Source of the DNA: Octopus vulgaris
Lineage: Eukaryota
Direction of reading: 5' to 3'
Length of the DNA stretch: 64,000 bases
Assembly (NCBI GenBank): GCA_951406725.2
Contig: OX597814.1
Span: 103,788,001-103,852,000 of the forward strand
In this document: in pieces, positions 1,570-63,925 of the stretch
Layout: each line of letters begins with the position of its first letter
Position numbering within the stretch: position 1 is the stretch's first letter
The notes under the pieces: generated by a model
What the model was told of the DNA's origin: nothing
The model's database searches: none
Seen by the model: the letters and a program-made list of their open reading frames with translations, nothing else
Position numbers and translations under genes: made by a program

Positions 1570-1780
1570 CAACTACCTTTCTCCAACCAGTCGCCATGAT
1601 TGACCGCTAAATCCAAAAGTTTTTTTATATTCTCTCTCTGTTTACTTCCTGGTGTTCTTTTCTGTTGAAGAGCATAGACTTGAAACGTAAAAGACTTAAC
1701 TTTTCCCGAGCGTCAAACTAATACACCTGCTTATTGTTTACAGACCTGTCTTCGTCTCTTGTTTTCCTGTGAATTTCAGT
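1570..1780 (+). mobile_element. PLE terminal repeat (pLTR-like) with CUGUUGA hammerhead variant
   Basis: Lies downstream of the GIY-YIG remnant; homologous to 7095-7240 (+) and 63355-63600 (-); contains TTTT-CTGTTGA-A-GAGC..-GAAA-CG-TA-AAAGAC. Confidence 0.7.
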
Positions 1781-7019: not shown

Positions 7020-7094
7020 TTATATATACATATTTGTGTATATGTATTTGTGCTATACTGGAGCGCCGAAATGTATAAGTCTTTTTCATTCTCT

Positions 7095-7240
7095 TTCTGT
7101 TTCTTTTCTCTTATTGCTTTCTGTTGAAGAGCGTAGGCTCGAAACGTAAAAGACTTCTTAATTTTTCCCCAGCGTCAAACTAATACACTCGCTTGTTGTT
7201 CATGTATCTGTCCTCGTCTTTTATTTATCTATAAATTTCA
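7095..7240 (+). mobile_element. PLE pLTR-like repeat with CUGUUGA hammerhead (7117-7153)
   Basis: CTTT-CTGTTGA-A-GAGC-GTAG-GCTC-GAAA-CG-TA-AAAG; homologous to 1570-1780. Confidence 0.75.
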
Positions 7241-8777: not shown

Positions 8778-9026
8778 TTAATAAAAATGGTAAGATAACA
8801 AAAGAATGAAAGAGACCCCGATATTATGTAAATAGAGGAATTTATCTGTAAAAGTAATATGTAACAGTTTTTCGGTAGCCATGATAAAACTCCGAGTTTC
8901 GGATGCCGAGGTGGAAATCCACGTCGCCACCTCATCAGTTATCTGGCCATCGGAAAAATCTCGGCTTCCGTAACTTGGAGTTTTATCATGGCTAACGAAT
9001 AATTGTCACATATTACTTTTACAGAT
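8778..9026 (-). mobile_element. foldback hammerhead element, family H1
   Basis: Inserted in (TA)n; 8844-8898 is inverted at 8972-9026; homologous to 12965-13125 and 63628-63915. Confidence 0.8.
8877..8948 (-). ncRNA. type I hammerhead ribozyme, canonical core
   Basis: GGCCA-GAUAA-CUGAUGA-[GGUGGCGACGUGGAUUUCCACCUCGGCAUCC]-GAAA-CU-CGG-AG-UU^UUAUC-A-UGGCU; predicted cleavage between 8888 and 8887. Confidence 0.85.
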
Positions 9027-9079
9027 ACACACACACACAGATAGATATATATATATATATATATTTACACACACACACG

Positions 9080-10722: not shown

Positions 10723-10977
10723 ACTTATCTTTCATCTGACTCGGAACCTGGATCTAGAGTCTAATTGAGTGCAGTGCAATAGGTGCAGTGAGTGTATCCA
10801 TGTGTGACCATGACAATTCGTTGTGCATTCAGTCCGCCATTTGTGATTGAACACACAACCGGAGTACAAATCTGTGTTTCCTTTAGTAAGTACGTATTCG
10901 TCCTTAAATATTGTTTGTACACAATACCGTTATCACCTGATTGTCTTGAATCCTGGAAATTTTTACATACATATGAG

Positions 10978-11259
10978 AAATAAGGATAAACACAAGTTTA
11001 TATTAAAGTTCCTACGCGCGTTTCACCATTATGGTTGTTTGGAACCCTGTGAAAGAAGTTCCAAAGGCATGTAGATGCTGAACCAGAACGATTACTCAGG
11101 GAACCATTTATTGCATTAAATTACTATAAGGTGTTCCCTGGAGGATCGTTCTGGTTCAACACTCAAATGTATTTGGAACTTCTGTGGCAAGGCACAAAAC
11201 TACCATAATGGTGAAACGCGCATAGGAACTTTAATATAAACTTGTGCTTATCGTTATTT
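10978..11259. mobile_element. foldback element with two divergent long-stem-II hammerhead motifs, family H2
   Basis: Arms of about 127 bp; minus 11008-11104 GUUCC-CUGAGUA-[68 nt]-GAAA-CGCGCG-UA-GGAAC; plus 11133-11229 GUUCC-CUGGAGG-[68 nt]-GAAA-CGCGCA-UA-GGAAC. Confidence 0.75.
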
Positions 11260-11404
11260 TGCTTCCATTTACTCTGTAGTTCATAACTGGTAACACCATT
11301 CAGGATAGAATTTATTTAACAACTCTACAAGTCTGGATTAGGATAATCTACGTGAAGCTCTAAACATAACAGTAGCAGTCATACATTTTTCTACACACAA
11401 TCTC

Positions 11405-11412
11405 TACTACTA

Positions 11413-12964: not shown

Positions 12965-12967
<3 letters not shown>

Positions 12968-13125
12968 AAAAATGGTAAGACAACAAAAGAATGAAAATAG
13001 ACCTTAATATTATGTAAATAGAGGAAGTTATCTGTAAATACAATATGTGACAATTATTCGGTTGCCTTAATAAAACTCCGAGTTTCGGATATCGGGGTGG
13101 AAACCTGCACCGGCATCTCGCTTAG
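12965..13125 (-). mobile_element. family H1 single arm with degenerate hammerhead
   Basis: Homologous to 8778-8940; stem II, GAAACUCGGAGUU and stem I 3' strand are retained, CUGANGA is decayed. Confidence 0.75.
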
Positions 13126-24009: not shown

Positions 24010-25000
24010 CTGTTTGACTTTTTCTTTGCATTTGTACAATTTGTACAATTTGGCTCCAAGTCTCACCCAGAGACCTCAAGTGACAACAAGTTAGACATTC
24101 ATGTTGGTGTTATGCCTAGGGTGTCATATATTTGGTTTTGCACATAGTATTGTCCTAAGGAATGTTTAAGAAAACAAGAAAATTATGAGTTTGTTTTAAA
24201 ATTTGAGATTACATAGACAGTATTTTACGTGGGATATGGGCAGTTCCCATGAGCACTATCTTTTGAATTTCTGACATTTTGGGGTATCTGGTATCTGAGC
24301 TAGGTAGCAATCAGCCCCTTTCGCTATCATTCCCAGGGCACCCATGACAACAGGAATTGTTTTAGTCTTTAGGTTCCACATTTTGCTAATTTCTATTTCA
24401 AGATCTTTATATTTGCTCAGTTTTTGGTAGGTCTTGACAGATACGTTTATATCGATTGGGACAGTCATATCAATGAGGAGGCATGTTTTTTGTCTGAAGT
24501 CTTTCAATATGATGCCTGACCTATTCGCAACTATCTTTCTGTCAGTTTGAATGGTGAAGTTCCGGAGGAGTGAGATGTGGTCATTTTCAAGCACTGGAAG
24601 TGGTTTGTGTTCCCACCAATTTTTATCATGGGGCAGGCCCAAATTTTTTCAAATTACCCAGTGAATTGTGCTGCTCCGTGATGCCTGTTGAGACACTCTG
24701 TATGCGCAAGAAGACTGCATATGGAGACAACATGATCAATTGTTTCGTTTTGTTGGGCAGCTGCCGTTCTTTAATATATTGGCCTGGTAGTTTCTTATAG
24801 GTAGGCATTGATCTTGGGCTGCTGTGATAAACCCTTCTGTTTCTGATTTTAAGCCAGAAGCCACTAACCATTGATGGGTAAGGGCCTTGTCAACACCGGC
24901 TTTATTAAGTCTCTTTGGGTGTTTGCCATTGAGAAGTTTTTCTTGCCATTTATCAGGAAGAACATCTAAGGCAGCAATTTTAGCACAGGTTTTCATACGC

Positions 25001-28085: not shown

Positions 28086-28460
28086 AAGATATATATATAT
28101 ATATATAACAAAGTGGAGTTGTGGGGTACCGCACGAGTGGAATTATATACGAAAGAAGGTTTGAAAATGCAATTTAAAAGATGTTTATTTACTTTACCGG
28201 TTTCACTCTTTGGAAAAAGATTGTCAAAAGTAACATGTGGAAGTTTGGTTGCGTTAATTATTGGTTGTTGCAAATTATGCATGTATGTATGTATGTGTGT
28301 GTGTTGCCCGAAACCGTTATGACTTCAGCTATTTGATTGAGGAAAGAAGGCCACGATTGACCCGTCTTTTTTTTTTGCCTGTCCAAATTGTTTTCTCCTG
28401 TCTGCCTTTGTATCGTCTACCTGTCCGATGTTTTATTGTCTTTTATTGCGTTTTTGTTCC

Positions 28461-35987: not shown

Positions 35988-36615
35988 TTATTGTCTTTGC
36001 ACAGCCCCTATCGCTGGAGATGTACTACGGTGCCAGCTGTTCACTACTAGTGATCTAAGGCAACACCCCTTATTTTTCGAGCACCATCCGGTTCCAAGCA
36101 GTGTTGCTTTCTGCCAGTGCTCTACCCTTATTGCAGCCCCTATTTGTTCCATGTACTTCTCAAAATTTTTACTCACGACTTTTCTTTCTTCCTTATCGCA
36201 TACCTTGTTGTCAGTTGGGCATGCTATATCTATGATCCAGCATCGTTTGCTTTCTTTCTTAATTAAAACTATGCCTGGTTTCCTATTCTCTATCTCATGG
36301 TCGCACAGAATCATAAAATCCCATAGGATCATTGCATTATCATTTTCAGGTTTGTGGCCGTACCAATTTTTTGCTCTGTCAAGTCCATACTTGTTGCAAA
36401 GTGTACAATGGACAAGCTGGACAATATTGTTGGGGCGTCTATTAAATCCCGTCTGGGCTAGTGGCATACATTGGCTGGTAATATGCCATACGGTTTCACC
36501 GTTTTGTCCACAGATTCTGCACTTATCACTTTCTGCTGTGTTGTCTATTCTGTATTTTATGTAGTTTGTTCTTAGTGCTTACTCTTGAGCAGCACAGATT
36601 AGAGCCTCCGTTTCA
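35988..36615 (-). mobile_element. R4/Dong-like LINE 3' fragment
   Basis: Zinc knuckle CRICGQNGETVWHI..C and ILWDFMILCDHEIENRKPGIVLI..WIIDIACP; same family as 51565-52672. Confidence 0.88.
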
Positions 36616-47199: not shown

Positions 47200-48190
47200 A
47201 ACTATAAACCGTCGGTGAGAAAGAGAATATAAAATTGTGATGAAGCGGAACCTGAAATCCTGCCATAAGAATGCTTGGTATTCTTTACCAATCTAAACAA
47301 TGTTGTTAACCTGGAGTGTCAACAGAAAGCTTATGAAATTTTCTGTTCGGATTGATAATCCCTCACTAATAGGTCACTTATATTGACAAAGGTTCCTGTC
47401 ATCCAGCCATAGTTTTCAATAATCTGGTAAAGGGCGCCAGCAGAAGAATCTCGAACCTATCTTGAAATAAAGATATTTGTACTACAACCAGGTTCTGGCA
47501 GCCAGACCCTAACCCCTCGAAGAGAAGGCGCCACCGGAAATTGTTGTGGTTCACACCACCCTTCTTTTTAAGCGTTAAAACCCAAGTAGGTAAGATTTGT
47601 CTTAGCTTAATAAATAAACACTTCCCCCGTACAGATACGTTTAAGCAAAATATTCAATAGGCATAGCCTGAGAATTTCCTCTAGCTGTACACCCAGTGTA
47701 AAACATTTTAATAGGTAGTCCCACATCTGAAACAGAAGTAGGATGCTCATGTAGGGGTAACTCAACATGTCCACTGAACTACCACTGTAACATGGAGACC
47801 GTCGTATACGAGTCAAAGGTAACAGCCATGGGACCAAATGAGCAACCAAACGTGCGAAAGTACGTGGAAGCAACTGAAGCCCCCCTTCAGAACCTGCTAT
47901 AACTACCACAAGTTCTTCTTCAACATCCCGGAGAGATGTAATACCACAACCCTGACCAAGCACATTTGGTCTTTTAAAGAAAGCGCCACCAAGTACAGCG
48001 TAAAGTGGAAGATCTTACAGAAATGTAAACTGTACAGGAAGTGCAAGTTATGCCTGGCTGAGAAAAGAGCGATTTTAAAGAGTATCCAGCACCCAGGTAT
48101 TTATCAGAATAGCAGAAGTGAAATTTTTATTCCTTGCCCACATGAAAGGAAATACATTCTATCATACCTGCGTGCTCCGTTATGATTATA
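47200..48190 (+). pseudogene. Penelope-like element (Neptune-like), RT thumb, linker and GIY-YIG remnant
   Basis: YIDKGSCHPAIVF..RRISNLS; RKLLWFTPPFFLSVKTQVGK..INKHFP; KIFNRHSLRISSSCTP; ORF 47838-48185 FRTCYNYHK..TTLTKHIW..VKWKIL..CKLCLAEK..RSEIFIPCPHERKY. Confidence 0.88.
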
Positions 48191-49125
48191 ATCACCAATC
48201 CCCCCAAGTTCGGTCCTCCACCATTACCTCGGAGTCCGGCAAAGAGTATGACCAGAGCATACACTAACGCACCCACAAACACGCACGCCTCAACACGGCG
48301 AACACCTACTCAATAGACTGTCCCCCCCCCAAATAAACCCACATACACATTGTACCCCTACATACTCCATACTCCATACTTTCATCTATTGTCGGTTAAC
48401 GTTTCTTACAGTTCGTTTATATTAAATACCAGCATCCAGTTATATCACTGATATTATACTTTAATTTCTGCTGACCCTAATTAGTTTAATCTCTGCTAAT
48501 TCTCCACACTCATGCTATAACTGTTTAAACGGATTATTGTTTCCTCGACCAAACATTTTCGGATTATTCCTCTTCTCGAACAATATATTTTTAAGATTAT
48601 TATAATTTATAATTTTCATATCTCACTTGTTTCTTTATAATTCTTTACTTGATTAATTTTTTTTTTTTGATTTCTTAATTTTCAAACGTAATATATTATG
48701 TATTCAACCCTAATCCCGGTTTAACTTACACTCCTCCACTTAATAAAGATTTAGCAACGAACTACATAACTAATTAATATCTATTTTAATTTATTTTATT
48801 TTTGCTGATTCTAAACTCTTAATCTCAATTTTTTGAATTTTGTACTTTTAAAAACTTTTTAAAAGTAATATGTATTTACCCCCAATCACTTTGATCCTCA
48901 GTCCCCTTCACTGGGCTGTTATTTATGTGTCACTAGCTAAGTATTAATTTTCACTCTATACATCTTATCTATTTATTCTCAGTTTCTATATTTGGTGTCC
49001 CTATATTTTCTCTATTTTTTCTTTTTTTATCTTATACATCTTCAATTCACCCAAGCCATATTTGTTCAGACTAGAATAGTTTATAACTTTCTTGGCTGCT
49101 TTTCAATTAAACTCTAAATTCTTAA

Positions 49126-49583
49126 AGTAAAGCGTATTTGCCAACATAATGTGGCAGTCTTGGATGGGACGAATGCCACTGTTGTTTATCCCCCAGGAAA
49201 CATCGTTTCCGGCTGGCTATACGACACAATATCTTCGTCCTTATATTTTCGAACAGGGGAGCTCAGCACCCACATCCAGCACAAAGCAACATCTGTGGAC
49301 CGGTTTCTGGATTATTGCCCTTTGTCAGCACAGAGTAGCTGCTCGGCTAGACGGTGCTGCTGAATTCCCGTTCGAAAATATATAATTTTCAAAGTGACAC
49401 ACAGTCACTGATCTAATAAATAGAAACGCTTCAAAGATGTTGCTTTGTGCTGGATGGGGGTGTTGAGCTCTCTGTTCGAAAATATAAGGACACAGATATT
49501 GTGGAAACGGCGTTTCCTCTGGCAAAGTAGTAACATTCGTTCCATCAAGGACTTCCACATTATGTTGGCAAATAGTCTTTACT
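49126..49583. mobile_element. MITE with long TIRs and TTAA target duplication (Kolobok-like)
   Basis: TTAA|AGTAAAG...CTTTACT|TTAA; imperfect inverted arms of about 150-170 bp; no ORF. Confidence 0.75.
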
Positions 49584-49993
49584 TTAAAGAACTGTTACTG
49601 TTCTTAGTTTCTGCTTTAACTCTTTAGGGTCTATTAGATTTCTCCATCTTTTTCATATTGGCATCACTTTTTCCCTTGCTTACACCTTCTAAGGTCACAA
49701 AGTGGGTCTGCTAGTGAGGCGGTGATTTATGCCTGCAACTAACCACACTGCTCCGCCACCACAAATATCAAAAGTATTCTCATTATTATTATTTTCGACT
49801 TGTCAGAATTATCGGTTTAATCGTTCCCCCCCTCTCGTCTGCTCAACGTTGTCGCTGATGAATGCCGTCTGGTGTTCAAATAAAATTTCACTCATCAAAC
49901 GAAATTTGGTACCAGTGGCATGGCTGTATTGACCAACCACTAAAAATCCAGATAAAGCGATTTGCTCTATATGGCCCTACCTAATTTATTAAT

Positions 49994-50779: not shown

Positions 50780-51459
50780 ATAGTAGTATTATCTGTATAT
50801 ATAAATTACTATCGTATAACCTTATACCATTATATATTATTCTACAATTCCTTTATTCTAAATCTCAACGACTTTATTTTGAAACTTTATTTAATTTTTG
50901 TAGTAGAAGACCTGGGGATAAAACATTTACACGTAGCAAGGCAGACAGAAACTCCATCTGGAGTGGAAGCCAAAGGTATTTGAATGCATCGACATTTTTA
51001 CAAGAGTTGATCCTCTTTTCGAACGTGTGTGCATGTATGCCTGCATTCATGAATGCATGTAAGCATGTAAGCATGCATACTATCAGAGTCAGCAAGAAAC
51101 ACTGGAGAAATATAACAGAATTATTTGCCCTTCATTACGGGAATTAACAGAATTATTTGCCCTTGGTATTTCTCATTAAGTGGATTATCTGCTCTTGGTT
51201 TCATCAAAAAGCATGACTGTTTTGAATTCAATAAATATAATACTTGTGAAATAATAGCATGATAATAACATATTGCCTCTCCAGGGACAAGCCACTGATT
51301 TCCACTTAAGACACAGCTTAACTTGATCAACCCCAGTACATAACTAGTACTTATTTCATCAACTGCACTGAGGTTTGAATTCAGAGTATGAATATTTGAA
51401 ACTAAATACTACACGGAATTAAAATCTATCGCTTCACTTCTACTGCTAAACACTGACTT

Positions 51460-51518
<59 letters not shown>

Positions 51519-51528
51519 CAACAATAAT

Positions 51529-51564
<36 letters not shown>

Positions 51565-51565
<1 letters not shown>

Positions 51566-52672
51566 GAAATTAGGAGGAGCATCTTCCAAGTGAACTGCAT
51601 GTCCCCACTGATCTTTGTACTGCGCTTGATACCACTGACACTGATTCTGAGGAAAGCAAAAGCTGGGTATGTATTCAAAAGCCGCCAGCAAAAAGTCAAC
51701 CATTTGTTATTCATGGATGACCTCAAACTTTATGGTAAAGATGAAGCCCAAGTCAGTTCCCTCGTTGATACGGTGTATACCTTCAATACTGATATCAGAA
51801 TGGAGTTTGGACTGAGAAAGTGTGGTGTGTTAGTATTGAAGAGAGGCAAAATCAAATGTATGGACGGCCTAACGATACCGCCGGGAGAGGTTATGAAGCA
51901 GATAGAAGAGACGGGCTATAAGTACTTGGGGATTTTGGAAATGGATAAATTGATGGAGAAAGAAATGACAGAAAAATTTAAGGTGGAGTACTTACGCAGA
52001 CTGAGACTGATCCTTAAGTCGAAATTAAACGGACGGAATAAGATTGAAGCTATCAACACCTGGGCGGTTTCACTTCATATATCTGAAGCAGGGGTAATCG
52101 CATGGACAGTAGACGAACTAAACAGCTTAGACAGAAAGACAAGGAAGTTGCTGACTAGATATGGGCCACTCCACCCAAAAAGTGACACAAACAGACTGTA
52201 TGTACCAAGAAAAAGAAGGGGAAGAGGACTTATTGGATGCGAACACAGCATTAGATCAGAAGAAAACAACATAGCATGGTATGTAAAAAAAAATGCCACA
52301 GAACCGCTATTATTAGAAGTATGAAGGTCAGGCTTGTGTAGGATGAAAGATTACAAAGATAAAGCACTATACAAGAAATTGAAAACGAATGAAACTGAAA
52401 ATAGGTGGGTAAAGAAAAGAATGCATGGTCAATTTCATAGAGATGTTGAAGATAAGACAGAGAGAGAACAAAGATGGCTGTGGATGACTAAAAGTGATCT
52501 AAAACCGGAAACGGAGGCTCTAATTTGTGCTGCCCAAGAGCAAGCACTAAGAACAAACTACATAAAATACAGAATAGGCAACAGTGCAGAAAGTGATAAG
52601 TGCAGAATCTGTGGACAAAATGGTGAAACCTTATGGCATATTACCGGCCAATGTGCGCCACTAGCCCAGATT
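51565..52672 (+). pseudogene. R4/Dong-like LINE, RT domain to zinc knuckle, truncated at both ends
   Basis: SPLIFVL..VNHLLFMDDLKLY..MEFGLRKC..YKYLGI..RLYVPRKRRGRGL; LKPETEALICAAQEQAL..CRICGQNGETLWHI; preceded by (TAA)n/(CAA)n. Confidence 0.93.
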
Positions 52673-53226
52673 ACTTTGATATTATTGTATCGTATATTCC
52701 TATAGTGTATATGCGTAAGTAGACATATGCCTTGCATGTGGGAAGAGTGCTGGCATGACATGCAACATGAATGAAGCTCCAACATCAATAATGGAAAACG
52801 TAGGGCTATAAGATGAAATGCACTTCTATTGAGAGAACGTGGCTTATAAAACAATGAAAAATTACTATTTTACAGACAAAATGTAAATTTCGAACGGGAC
52901 TCGTAGCCGTCTGCTCACAACGTTTTTTTCCGTCTTATAAAGGTAAAATACCCAATTGTTCCGCTGTTTTCAAGGCCATACTATGTCGGAAATTTACTTT
53001 TTTGTCTAACGTTTCCAAAAAGTTTGTTTATAAAAAGTTGTCGCATTCCAGAAACAGTTGTTATTATTATTATTTAGCGTTAAAACTGACGGTAATTGTT
53101 ACCAGCTGAGCTTAATAGCTGAGTGCTCAGCAGGTACATTCTATGTGACACCAGTACGTGCGCTTTTTACATGATGGCCGTACCCGTGGGGTCCCAAATG
53201 GTTTGCAAGACAAGTGTGTCTTAACT

Positions 53227-61369: not shown

Positions 61370-62800
61370 TGTACGCTTCAGTCATATGGCTGTGGTCATG
61401 CTGGAGCACCATCATGGTCTTTCTGATTTCCTCAGTCTGGATATTTCACATCACCACTCCTCTATGTGCCTGTATCCAAGCTGTTGGTACATTTGGTGTA
61501 TAATTGAGTTTGATTCCGCTGCCCTCGTCTGTACCTCATGTGGGGCTGTTGGTTTATCAGGCATTGTGGAGAGGAGGATGTATAGTTCCTTTCTGAAGAC
61601 ATCTACTTCCAACTTATGCAGATTTAAAATTTTTTGTGGCAGAGAATTGAAGAGCCATGGGCCTTCGAATCCTAGACTATTGCAGTACCTGGTCCTGAAT
61701 TTAGATGGAGTGGATGGTACCTTTGGTACAATACAATGGCAGCCAGTTCTGGCATTTGTATAACACTCAATGCGAAAGTTAGGGACTAGCCCTTCTAGGA
61801 TTTTCCATATGTCTGTCATGCCTTTGCTCCAGGGAGTAGAGCTGTAGTTTTCTCCACCTATCCCTGTAGCTCATCCACTGCAATGTTTCAATCTTTTTAC
61901 TGCTTCAAGCTCCGCTGGTTGGACTGCTTCAAGCTCCGCTGTTTGTTTGGCAATATGTGGTGACCATAACTGGGAAAGGTAGTCCAGGTGGCTGAGAACA
62001 AAGGCTCTCCACAAGGTCAACATAGTTTCTTTGTCTCTTGTCTTGAATGACCTCAGTATCCATCCTGCTAATTGTCTGCACTTTGCTGCCATCTTGCTAA
62101 TGTGCATAGGAAATGATACGTCATTGCACATACTGATCCCCAAGTCTTTCACTGAATGTGACTCCGGGATTGTAGTGCCTTCAGGTCCTGTAAATGTAGA
62201 TTGTACTGTATTTGTGAGTTGATAGTGCAGCGCTTAAAATTTTCCAGCATTAAACTGCATGTTCTTTATTTCGGTCCAGTTGTACATCGAATTCGGGTCC
62301 TGCTGTAAGCTTGCGACCTCATCTTGGATTTTATTGCCCGTGATAATTTTGTATCATCGGCATAGCTAGTGACAGTGGCTGTCCGAGTGACTGCGGGTAC
62401 GACTAAGAGGGCTGTTATGAACAGTAATGGCCCCAGAGCATTTCCCCGGAGAACACCACTTAAGATTTGAGTTTCCTCAGAAAGGGTGTCATTGGCTGCA
62501 ACTACCTGACTTCTGTTTTTAAGGAAGTCATGCAGCCACTCTCCCAGTTTACCAGAAATGTCAAGGTCTCGTAGCTTATGACTTATCATGCCATGATCTA
62601 CCTATCAAATGCCTTTGAGAAGTCAAAGTATATCACACTGACATCTGAATGGTCAAGCAGCTGTTTCAAAACCCAGTCATAGTGCTGTAGGAGCTGTGTG
62701 AGGCAGCTTCTTCCTGTGAGGAAGCCATGTTGTATATTGCTCAGTTGGATATTTTCTTCTGGGAACATTATCAACTTCTTTCTGATGATTCACTCCATGA
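61370..62800 (-). mobile_element. CR1-group LINE, 5'-truncated, decayed RT and 3' end
   Basis: HGFLTGRSCLTQLL..YFDFSKAFD; SGVLRGNALGPLLF..YADDTKL; KDLGI; WKILEGLVPN..LFNSLP; 3' end GGTGCTCCAGCATGACCACAGCC. Confidence 0.92.
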
Positions 62801-63354: not shown

Positions 63355-63600
63355 ATATATAACGGGAAGGTTTATGAAAAGAAACAAAAGACGAAGGCAG
63401 GTGGAGTACAAACAAACAAATGTATTAGTATAGCGCTCAGGAATAGAAAAAGTCTTTTACGTTTCGAGCCTACGCTCTTCGACAGAAAGTTACACTGAAA
63501 AAAACAAGGAGAGAAAAAAATGCGTGTAGTGGCTAACGATCTATCATGGCGTCCTGACTTCGGACAGTGGTCAGACGCGAGAGGGACAGTAGGGGAGATA
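63355..63600 (-). mobile_element. PLE pLTR-like repeat with CUGUCGA hammerhead (63452-63489)
   Basis: CUUU-CUGUCGA-A-GAGC-GUAG-GCUC-GAAA-CG-UA-AAAG; homologous to 1570-1780. Confidence 0.78.
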
Positions 63601-63657
63601 AAAGGGTCAAGTGACTTCCAATATATATGTAAATATAATATGTGACAATTATTCGGT

Positions 63658-63729
63658 AGCCATGATAAAATTCCGAGTTTCGGATGTCGGGGCGGAAACC
63701 CACACCGCCATCTCTTCAGTTATCGGGCC
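63658..63729 (-). ncRNA. type I hammerhead, family H1, left arm
   Basis: GAUAA-CUGAAGA-GAUG..CAUCC-GAAA-CUCGGAA-UU-UUAUC; one stem III mismatch. Confidence 0.72.
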
Positions 63730-63745
63730 ATCGAAAAATGCTTAA

Positions 63746-63819
63746 TGGCACGATAACTGAAGAGATGGTGGCGTGGGTTTCCGCCCCGAAATCCGAAACT
63801 CGGAGTTTTATTATGGCTA
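63746..63819 (+). ncRNA. type I hammerhead, family H1, right arm
   Basis: GAUAA-CUGAAGA(63757-63763)-stem II-GAAA(63795-63798)-CU-CGG-AG-UU^UUAUU; predicted cleavage after 63807. Confidence 0.8.
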
Positions 63820-63925
63820 CCGAATAATTGTCACATATTATATTTACAGATAAATTCCTCTATTTACATAAGGCCGAGGTCTCTTTCATTCTTTTGTTGT
63901 CTTACCATTTCTATCAATATCTATG

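What the first reader, a model, noticed from the sequence alone, without database searches (positions are those of the whole stretch)
10978..11259. Second double-hammerhead hairpin with a 68-nt stem II insert (family H2)
Seen: both arms keep stem I GUUCC/GGAAC, the stem II base AUCGUU/AAUGGU, GAAA and a CGCGCR-UA stem III. Both have exactly 68 nt between the core halves, although that segment has diverged. Each 5' core is imperfect (CUGAGUA, CUGGAGG), suggesting an old copy of a CUGAGGA consensus (inference). So long a stem II domain would escape typical short-helix hammerhead searches.
Basis: partly seen in the sequence, partly recalled or inferred. Interest (0 to 1): 0.7.

Follow-up and report, generated by a model that had tools for sequence, protein, structure and literature searches.

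The report
Fossil retrotransposon hammerhead with oversized arm
This is a decayed, back-to-back pair of ends of what is likely a Penelope-like retrotransposon; both hammerhead ribozyme cores here are broken, but the family, like several others in this genome, has a full core around a predicted 54-68-base arm that standard ribozyme searches miss.

Summary
Observation confirmed: two inverted arms, each with stem I, GAAA, a CGCGCR-UA stem III, exactly 68 nt between the core halves and a broken 5' core. The arms lie on opposite strands, so this is not a working double ribozyme. It is one old copy of a dispersed family (at least 73 loci) with Penelope-like (PLE) insertion anatomy: scattered 5' ends, a fixed 3' end about 40 nt past the cleavage site, head-to-head pairs at 28 of 73 loci, a ~150-nt tail usually on one arm only, microsatellite flanks. 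The family majority has a complete type I core (CUGAUGA; CUGAGGA in one subfamily), a U.U pair at 10.1/11.1, and a predicted 12-bp stem II capped by two hairpins. Covariation is weak, and no ORF was found for this family. Four other families here carry 54-61-nt stem II arms downstream of Hydra-type GIY-YIG ORFs; one is young, with intact cores. Published Hydra hammerheads span at most 26 nt there, and Rfam misses the long ones. Verdict: ordinary fossil locus, new variant of the PLE hammerhead; cleavage untested.

The parts
10975..11124 (-). Left arm: 5'-truncated element end, stopping at the family's fixed 3' end (no tail)
   Evidence: family profile positions 75-232, E 2e-48
11122..11259 (+). 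Right arm: 5'-truncated element end up to the fixed 3' end
   Evidence: family profile positions 85-381, E 2e-80
11260..11405 (+). One-sided tail of the element (~150 nt), followed by a (CTA)n/(CTG)n microsatellite
11122..11125 (.). Head-to-head inversion junction
   Evidence: profile hits of both arms meet here; crossed by contigs of three other DNA runs
11093..11104 (-). Left stem I 5' strand and broken 5' core CUGAGUA
   Evidence: sequence
11025..11092 (-). Left 68-nt stem II domain; still predicted to fold as a stem capped by two hairpins
   Evidence: z -2.6 on 65 of the 68 nt
11008..11024 (-). Left GAAA, palindrome CGCGCG, GUA cleavage triplet (would cut after 11013), stem I 3' strand
   Evidence: sequence
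11133..11144 (+). Right stem I 5' strand and broken 5' core CUGGAGG
   Evidence: sequence
11145..11212 (+). Right 68-nt stem II domain; inner hairpins decayed
   Evidence: z +0.5
11213..11229 (+). Right GAAA, CGCGCA (palindrome broken by a CpG-type change), AUA triplet, stem I 3' strand
   Evidence: sequence

Best explanation
The locus is an old, inactive insertion of two 5'-truncated 3' ends of a dispersed repeat in head-to-head orientation, most likely the pseudo-LTR of a Penelope-like retrotransposon (probably Hydra clade), whose master element carried a complete type I hammerhead core around a predicted 68-nt three-way-junction stem II. Shown: both cores at this locus are broken; the family majority has the full core, stem I, a palindromic stem III and complementary stem II strands; copies have scattered 5' ends, one fixed 3' end, a one-sided tail and microsatellite flanks. 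Inferred: the inverted pair arose during insertion, when the element's reverse transcriptase/GIY-YIG protein copied the RNA end onto both strands of the cut target. Inferred: in the master, the ribozyme would cut at GUA about 40 nt before the fixed end, only as a dimer of two same-strand copies in a tandem transcript (6-nt palindrome as shared stem III), and perhaps with help from the element's protein. The long arm would be a tolerated extension of stem II pointing away from the core. Cleavage is untested.
For: 73 distinct loci, 114 profile hits. 3' ends pile up at profile positions 220-239 (44 hits) and 370-400 (40 hits); 5' starts are scattered; 28 of 73 loci are head-to-head pairs against 2 tail-to-tail; 20 of the 28 pair a fixed end with a tailed arm; 34 of 44 fixed ends are followed by (TA)/(CA)/(TG)-type repeats against an 18% background. 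This matches the PLE layout in PMC8557442: inverted 5'-truncated copy, one-sided tail. Majority pairing: stem I 5 of 5, stem II 12 of 12, hairpins 4 of 4 and 10 of 11; the insert folds to this structure unconstrained, z -4.0, 2 of 1000 shuffles as low. Among three subfamilies 27 columns differ, but of the core only the free N7 does; subfamily B swaps a U-A pair for C-G and the palindrome CGCGCG for CGUACG. U.U at 10.1/11.1 is in 14 of 25 Hydra families in File S2 of PMC8557442 and is the best tolerated mismatch per PMC3088659. Four other families here have 54-61-nt stem II arms downstream of Hydra-type GIY-YIG ORFs.
Against: No RT or GIY-YIG remnant was found in sense orientation upstream of any copy; the longest reach only ~900 nt upstream, so PLE and Hydra membership rest on anatomy. 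RNAalifold returned no consensus structure. Covariation on the named structure is weak: 80.4% of cells paired against 79.5% shuffled (7 of 500), both-side changes 38 against 26 (2 of 500), but pairs with such changes 15 against 14.5 (245 of 500) and extra pair types 49 against 49.8 (339 of 500); some changes are CpG decay. Subfamily B also breaks three predicted pairs. The antisense of the insert folds almost as well (-22.1 against -25.9). The tail (~150 nt) is longer than the 30-40 bp in PMC8557442. U.U also closes stem II in a non-Hydra PLE here (L131). Only 14 of 47 copies keep an intact core.
Confidence: 0.8

Rival explanations
1. The family is a non-autonomous ~1.1-1.3 kb PLE derivative (SINE- or retrozyme-like) with no ORF of its own, moved by another PLE's protein; the hammerhead reading is unchanged.
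For: No ORF found. The three longest copies (L062, L122, L055) begin within about 50 nt of each other. A preprint derives animal retrozymes from PLE pLTRs (10.64898/2026.07.22.740005).
Against: No head-to-tail arrays of three or more units among the 73 loci. The ORF-bearing relatives have 3' UTRs of 200-700 nt, so ~900 nt without coding sequence is not out of range. Old long copies are hard to find with seed-limited searches (3 hits each).
Confidence: 0.25
2. The master's hammerhead was already catalytically dead or negligible, and the motif was kept only as a protein-binding or priming structure.
For: U.U instead of G10.1-C11.1; a very long stem II removes the usual loop I/II contact; PLE hammerheads cleave poorly in vitro (PMC4209133); hammerhead mutants did not affect insertion in vitro for an Anolis PLE (PMC11167929).
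Against: Core positions other than N7 are the same in three subfamilies and the stem III palindrome is kept through a double change; the young relative has an intact core in 29 of 30 loci read.
Confidence: 0.2
3. The locus has been taken over by the host as a long hairpin RNA (small-RNA precursor) or as a working double ribozyme.
For: The outer parts of the arms are more alike (78 of 89) than in other pairs (884 of 1159, 76%); the hairpin is very stable.
Against: Both cores are broken and on opposite strands. Overall arm identity (114 of 148, 77%) is within the range of the 22 pairs measured (66-82%). The orthologue in run X19 differs at 36 of about 383 bases. Rfam miRNA matches are far below their thresholds.
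Confidence: 0.04
4. It is a MITE or foldback DNA transposon whose terminal inverted repeats happen to resemble hammerheads.
For: A near-symmetric 282-nt inverted repeat.
Against: 45 of 73 loci have no head-to-head partner; inner breakpoints vary from locus to locus; the outer ends are asymmetric (fixed end against tail) in 20 of 28 pairs.
Confidence: 0.02

Closest known systems
Type I hammerheads in pseudo-LTRs of Penelope-like elements (Cervera and de la Pena 2014, PMC4209133)
   Same: Type I core, 5-bp stem I, short palindromic stem III that implies dimer cleavage, mostly truncated dispersed copies, some pairs on opposite strands 100-700 bp apart.
   Different: Their descriptor has stem II of 3-7 bp and a loop of 3-10 nt, and they note a conserved G10.1-C11.1; here 68 nt with a predicted 12-bp stem and two hairpins, closed by U.U.
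Hydra-clade PLEs (Craig et al. 2021, PMC8557442)
   Same: Microsatellite targets, inverted 5'-truncated copy, one-sided tail; U.U-closed stem II in 14 of 25 families of File S2. Long-arm relatives in this genome have the CxCX5C linker and flanking CxxC/CxH motifs.
   Different: The listed Hydra hammerheads have at most 26 nt between core halves; tails are given as 30-40 bp. No ORF was found for this family, so its clade is inferred.
Spike-moss PLE-X1_sMoe and PLE-X1_sTam hammerheads (File S2 of PMC8557442)
   Same: PLE hammerheads with about 50 nt between core halves, so a long stem II has a precedent.
   Different: Plant, endonuclease-less elements; flagged only as deviating from the canonical structure; cores or stems imperfect; not shown to recur across families.
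Anolis Poseidon element PAc (PMC11167929)
   Same: Hammerhead in the pLTR; genomic tail; protein extends both target strands, a likely source of inverted pairs.
   Different: Short stem II that overlaps the ORF start; activity was tested there and needed protein.
Animal non-LTR retrozymes (10.64898/2026.07.22.740005)
   Same: Non-coding repeats with type I hammerheads derived from pLTRs.
   Different: Defined by head-to-tail tandem units; this family is dispersed, 5'-truncated and head-to-head.

Membership tests
Type I hammerhead (family majority) | 5' core CUGANGA | tested here: met
   each fixed position 37-45 of 47 copies; N7 variable
Type I hammerhead (this locus) | 5' core CUGANGA | tested here: not met
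   CUGAGUA and CUGGAGG
Type I hammerhead (family majority) | GAAA, A15.1-U16.1 pair and NUH cleavage triplet | tested here: met
   GAAA 42-45 of 47, U 37, A 46; triplet GUA
Type I hammerhead (family majority) | Stems I, II and III can pair | tested here: met
   5 of 5, 12 of 12, palindrome CGCGCG; covariation weak; RNAalifold empty
Type I hammerhead (family majority) | G10.1-C11.1 (or purine-pyrimidine) pair closing stem II | tested here: not met
   U.U in 32 of 47; a known natural, tolerated variant
Type I hammerhead | Tertiary contact between stems I and II | tested here: inconclusive
   a 7-bp pairing between the second hairpin and the strand upstream of stem I is possible but shows no covariation (odds ratio 1.1, p 1.0)
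Type I hammerhead | Self-cleavage at the NUH site | not testable with these tools
   needs an in vitro assay
Penelope-like element | 5' truncation with a fixed 3' end holding a hammerhead | tested here: met
Penelope-like element | Inverted 5'-truncated copy adjoining the 5' end | tested here: met
   28 of 73 loci head-to-head, 2 tail-to-tail
Penelope-like element | [quoted passage not shown] | tested here: met
   20 of 28 pairs; ~150 nt rather than 30-40 bp
Penelope-like element | ORF with telomerase-like RT and GIY-YIG endonuclease | tested here: inconclusive
   none found within the ~900 nt reached upstream
Hydra clade of PLEs | Endonuclease with CxCX5C linker and no CCHH | tested here: inconclusive
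   no ORF for this family; met by eye in long-arm relatives L160/L272, L020, L008, L207
Hydra clade of PLEs | Insertion into (TA)n-type repeats | tested here: met
   34 of 44 fixed ends against 18% background; (CA)n and (TG)n counted too
Non-LTR retrozyme | Head-to-tail tandem units each with a hammerhead | tested here: not met
   no array of three or more units in the hit table of 73 loci, 1.5 kb flanks
MITE / foldback DNA transposon | Uniform unit with symmetric terminal inverted repeats | tested here: not met
   variable junctions, asymmetric ends, 45 of 73 loci unpaired

The most novel reading that the evidence does not exclude
Hydra-clade PLEs of this animal have repeatedly enlarged hammerhead stem II into a 54-68-nt domain that is a functional module: a docking site for the element's own RT/endonuclease that switches on dimer cleavage or places reverse-transcription priming. 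Thousands of such ribozymes would be invisible to current descriptors in invertebrate genomes, and the young 59-nt family gives an intact RNA and protein to test what PLE hammerheads are for.
Probability: 0.25. Interest if true: 0.7.

Novelty: new variant of a known kind. Interest (0 to 1): 0.42.

Why it matters
The locus itself is a dead fossil. The class matters modestly: hammerheads with 54-68-nt stem II arms recur in at least five sequence families of this genome, are missed by Rfam and by the published PLE descriptors, and so may be undercounted, and some PLEs scored as lacking a hammerhead may have one. What PLE hammerheads do is still open; a young family with an intact core and a removable long arm makes a direct test possible (arm deleted or kept, with or without element protein).

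Tried and rejected
RNAalifold on 47 copies: no structure, as expected for copies about 83% identical to their majority. Walking upstream for an ORF: one search hit low-complexity DNA, one search hit a nested repeat, searches gave 3 hits each and none reached coding sequence. Checking 80 GIY-YIG loci for this family downstream: none. Hydra endonuclease remnants near copies (L008, L020, L044, L057, L069) are in the wrong place or orientation, and three have their own different hammerhead. A faint F-N-x6-F-L-C resemblance to a Hydra ORF end at the 5' edge of L062/L122 scored nothing with a profile: rejected. Pseudoknot from the second hairpin to the strand upstream of stem I: no covariation. Exact 29-mer of the 3' core region: only this locus in the genome, so no young copies were seen. 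Sequencing runs: no RNA holder listed; the one run guessed to be RNA showed no listed piece across the junction; neither bears on expression. Earlier findings of the scan: none returned. Lunse et al. on PLE hammerhead variants was not held.

Full report
OBSERVATION. Their 5' ends face each other. Contigs from three other DNA runs, labelled as three other organisms, cross the junction (X4 and X5 with 1 and 2 differences over 291 bases, X19 with 36 differences and 6 gaps over about 383), so the pair is real and older than those splits. The runs had been picked with another copy, L010. The genome is 2.8 Gb and rich in microsatellites; one of its elements has a hammerhead nearly the same as the published Hydra-1_oBim, so the host is probably an octopus (inference).

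THE FAMILY. Three DNA searches of the own genome scored 40 of 177, 40 of 227 and 30 of 30 candidates; the 90 loci fetched reduce to 73 distinct loci with 114 profile hits, a lower bound. 54 copies span the hammerhead; 47 were aligned after dropping 7 with large gaps or poor alignment. Copies average 83% identity to the column majority, best 92%, and an exact 29-mer of the 3' core region occurs only at this locus: the family is old. The majority reads stem I GUUCC/GGAAC, core CUGA(U/G)GA, U, a 66-nt stem domain, U, GAAA, CGCGCG, UA. Fixed core positions are kept in 37-46 of 47 copies, N7 is U 29, G 10, A 4, C 3. Fourteen of 47 copies keep a whole core; the two window arms do not.

THE 68-NT ARM. 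In the majority the arm pairs as a 12-bp stem (12 of 12) topped by a 4-bp hairpin (4 of 4) and an 11-bp hairpin (10 of 11); unconstrained folding gives this three-way junction at -25.9 kcal/mol, z -4.0, 2 of 1000 shuffles as low. The left arm and copies L123 and L010 still fold so (z -2.6, -2.9, -2.1); the right arm does not (z +0.5). Against: RNAalifold found nothing; pair counts are only slightly above shuffles on three of five measures and not on two; the antisense folds at -22.1. Subfamilies give better but thin evidence (36, 26 and 11 copies, split by diagnostic columns I chose): 27 columns differ, and in the core only N7; subfamily B changes a U-A pair to C-G, repairs an A.C mismatch to A-U and turns CGCGCG into CGUACG, still a palindrome, but it also breaks three predicted pairs. 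PMC3088659 (passages) reports natural U10.1-U11.1 hammerheads and calls it the best tolerated mismatch.

INSERTION ANATOMY. 3' ends fall in two groups: profile positions 220-239 (44 hits, about 40 nt past the cleavage site) and 370-400 (40 hits, the tail); 5' starts are scattered. 28 of 73 loci are head-to-head pairs, 2 are tail-to-tail; in 20 of the 28 one arm stops at the fixed end and the other carries the tail; 34 of 44 fixed ends run into (TA), (CA) or (TG) repeats against 18% of random windows. The window is such a pair: the left arm stops near 10975, the right arm has a tail to about 11405. PMC8557442 (passages, section 11 and part 2 of the supplement) gives this layout for PLEs; PMC4209133 (parts 1-2 of 4 and supplement passages) reports PLE hammerheads as mostly single truncated copies, some paired on opposite strands. 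Arms of a pair are slightly more alike (mean 73.6%) than copies from different loci (71.1%; 22 pairs, p 0.002), as expected for one insertion followed by neutral decay. Because the arms are on opposite strands, any transcript would pair them into a hairpin of -152 to -164 kcal/mol and could not form the dimeric ribozyme.

NO ORF FOUND. The longest copies reach about 900 nt upstream through a pyrimidine-rich stretch. Five walking searches and protein or profile scans of the loci found no RT or endonuclease joined to it, and none of 80 GIY-YIG loci had this family downstream. PLE membership therefore rests on anatomy.

LONG ARMS RECUR. A scan allowing up to 120 nt in stem II over 847 kb of fetched DNA gave 39 distinct hits against 0, 1 and 2 in shuffles (the loci were selected for PLEs, so this is no genome-wide rate). 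Besides this family there are: a young family with a 59-nt arm and G-C closure (1868 candidates, 40 scored, best hits 96-98% identical; intact core in 29 of 30 loci read), lying about 600 nt behind an ORF with an RT thumb-like region, a CxCX5C linker and a GIY-YIG domain (Pfam 23.5 bits, cut-off 22.6); a 54-nt family behind a similar ORF (L202, L206); a 59-nt arm with U.U closure (L020) and a 61-nt arm (L008), each behind such an ORF; and a 55-nt arm without known ORF (L034). Three of these arms were folded against shuffles: z -3.1, -3.5, -3.6. The ORF motifs fit the Hydra clade as defined in PMC8557442 (by eye, no tree). The window's other double hammerhead (8870-8995, 31-nt arm) matches the end of a Hydra-type remnant in L044, and L262 has 23 nt. 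The family profile does not match these other ends significantly (best E 0.13), so they are separate families.

COMPARISON WITH PRINT. File S2 of PMC8557442 lists 25 Hydra families: 14 have U.U closure, none has more than 26 nt between core halves; two spike-moss PLE-X elements have about 50 nt and are flagged as deviating. The descriptor of PMC4209133 allows stem II of 7 bp and a loop of 10 nt; the core-only search of PMC8557442 allowed 7-17 nt and marked 35-50 nt cases as half cores. Rfam gave no hammerhead match at E<=10 on this locus or on an intact copy of the young family. Six searches of the library showed no paper on 54-68-nt stem II arms in animal PLE hammerheads. Limits: Lunse et al. 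was not held, Arkhipova et al. 2017 was not read, file 1 of the PMC4209133 supplement was not searched, and preprint supplements are closed; any of these may show such variants. Also seen: PMC11167929 (passages), PMC6765202 (passages), PMC13725137 (passages), 10.64898/2026.07.22.740005 (parts 1-2 of 5).

MECHANISM. Shown: anatomy, complete core in the family, broken cores here. Inferred from PMC4209133 and PMC6765202: a 6-nt palindromic stem III makes the monomer weak, so cleavage at GUA would need two same-strand copies in a tandem transcript. Inferred from PMC11167929: the element's protein may be needed for cleavage, and its extension of both target strands could produce the inverted pair and the tail. 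The long arm is most simply a tolerated extension; that several families keep folded arms of like size leaves room for a function.

VERDICT. The locus is an ordinary inactive inverted PLE-type insertion. The hammerhead it descends from is a new variant of a known kind. Interest 0.42.

Noticed in passing
L159 1620-1700 (+); L160, L272; G000 genome-wide: Young Hydra-type PLE family (1868 candidates, best hits 96-98% identical) with an intact hammerhead core, G10.1-C11.1 and a 59-nt stem II; the best material for a cleavage test.
   Followed up: partly
window 8780-9030; also 12966-13103 and 63620-63914: The other double-hammerhead family (31-nt stem II, intact core at 8938 on the minus strand); three places in the window; its match in L044 lies behind a Hydra-type endonuclease remnant.
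   Followed up: partly
window 47823-48185 (+): C-terminal remnant of a Hydra-type GIY-YIG ORF; its relatives carry a hammerhead with a 54-nt stem II about 600 nt downstream (L202, L206).
   Followed up: partly
window 1623-1707, 7081-7170 (+), 63447-63489 (-): Short minimal PLE-type hammerheads (13-nt stem II) whose core reads CUGUYGA, a change at A6, in several copies.
   Followed up: no
window 28190-28235 (-): Hammerhead variant with the U3-A8 core pair and U.U closure of stem II.
   Followed up: no
L134, L139 and many places: PLE family with intact 781-aa RT plus GIY-YIG frames at many loci, and a U3-A8 hammerhead variant with an 18-23-nt stem II; probably recently active.
   Followed up: partly
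window 49100-49600: Another head-to-head inverted pair of about 200 nt per arm, with no hammerhead found by my scans.
   Followed up: no
window 10978-11259: Outer parts of the two arms are 78 of 89 identical but the inner 42 nt only 28 of 42; other pairs show a much smaller gap (76% against 72%).
   Followed up: partly
L122 1177-1250 (+); L257; L034 1750-2450: Further long-arm hammerheads: 57 and 59 nt (older relatives of the young family by their 3' ends) and a 55-nt inverted pair with no ORF seen.
   Followed up: no
window 51392-52705 (+), 35988-36578 (-), 24256-24648 (-), 61451-62601 (-): Remnants of non-LTR retrotransposon ORFs; the first has a weak RVT_1 match.
   Followed up: no
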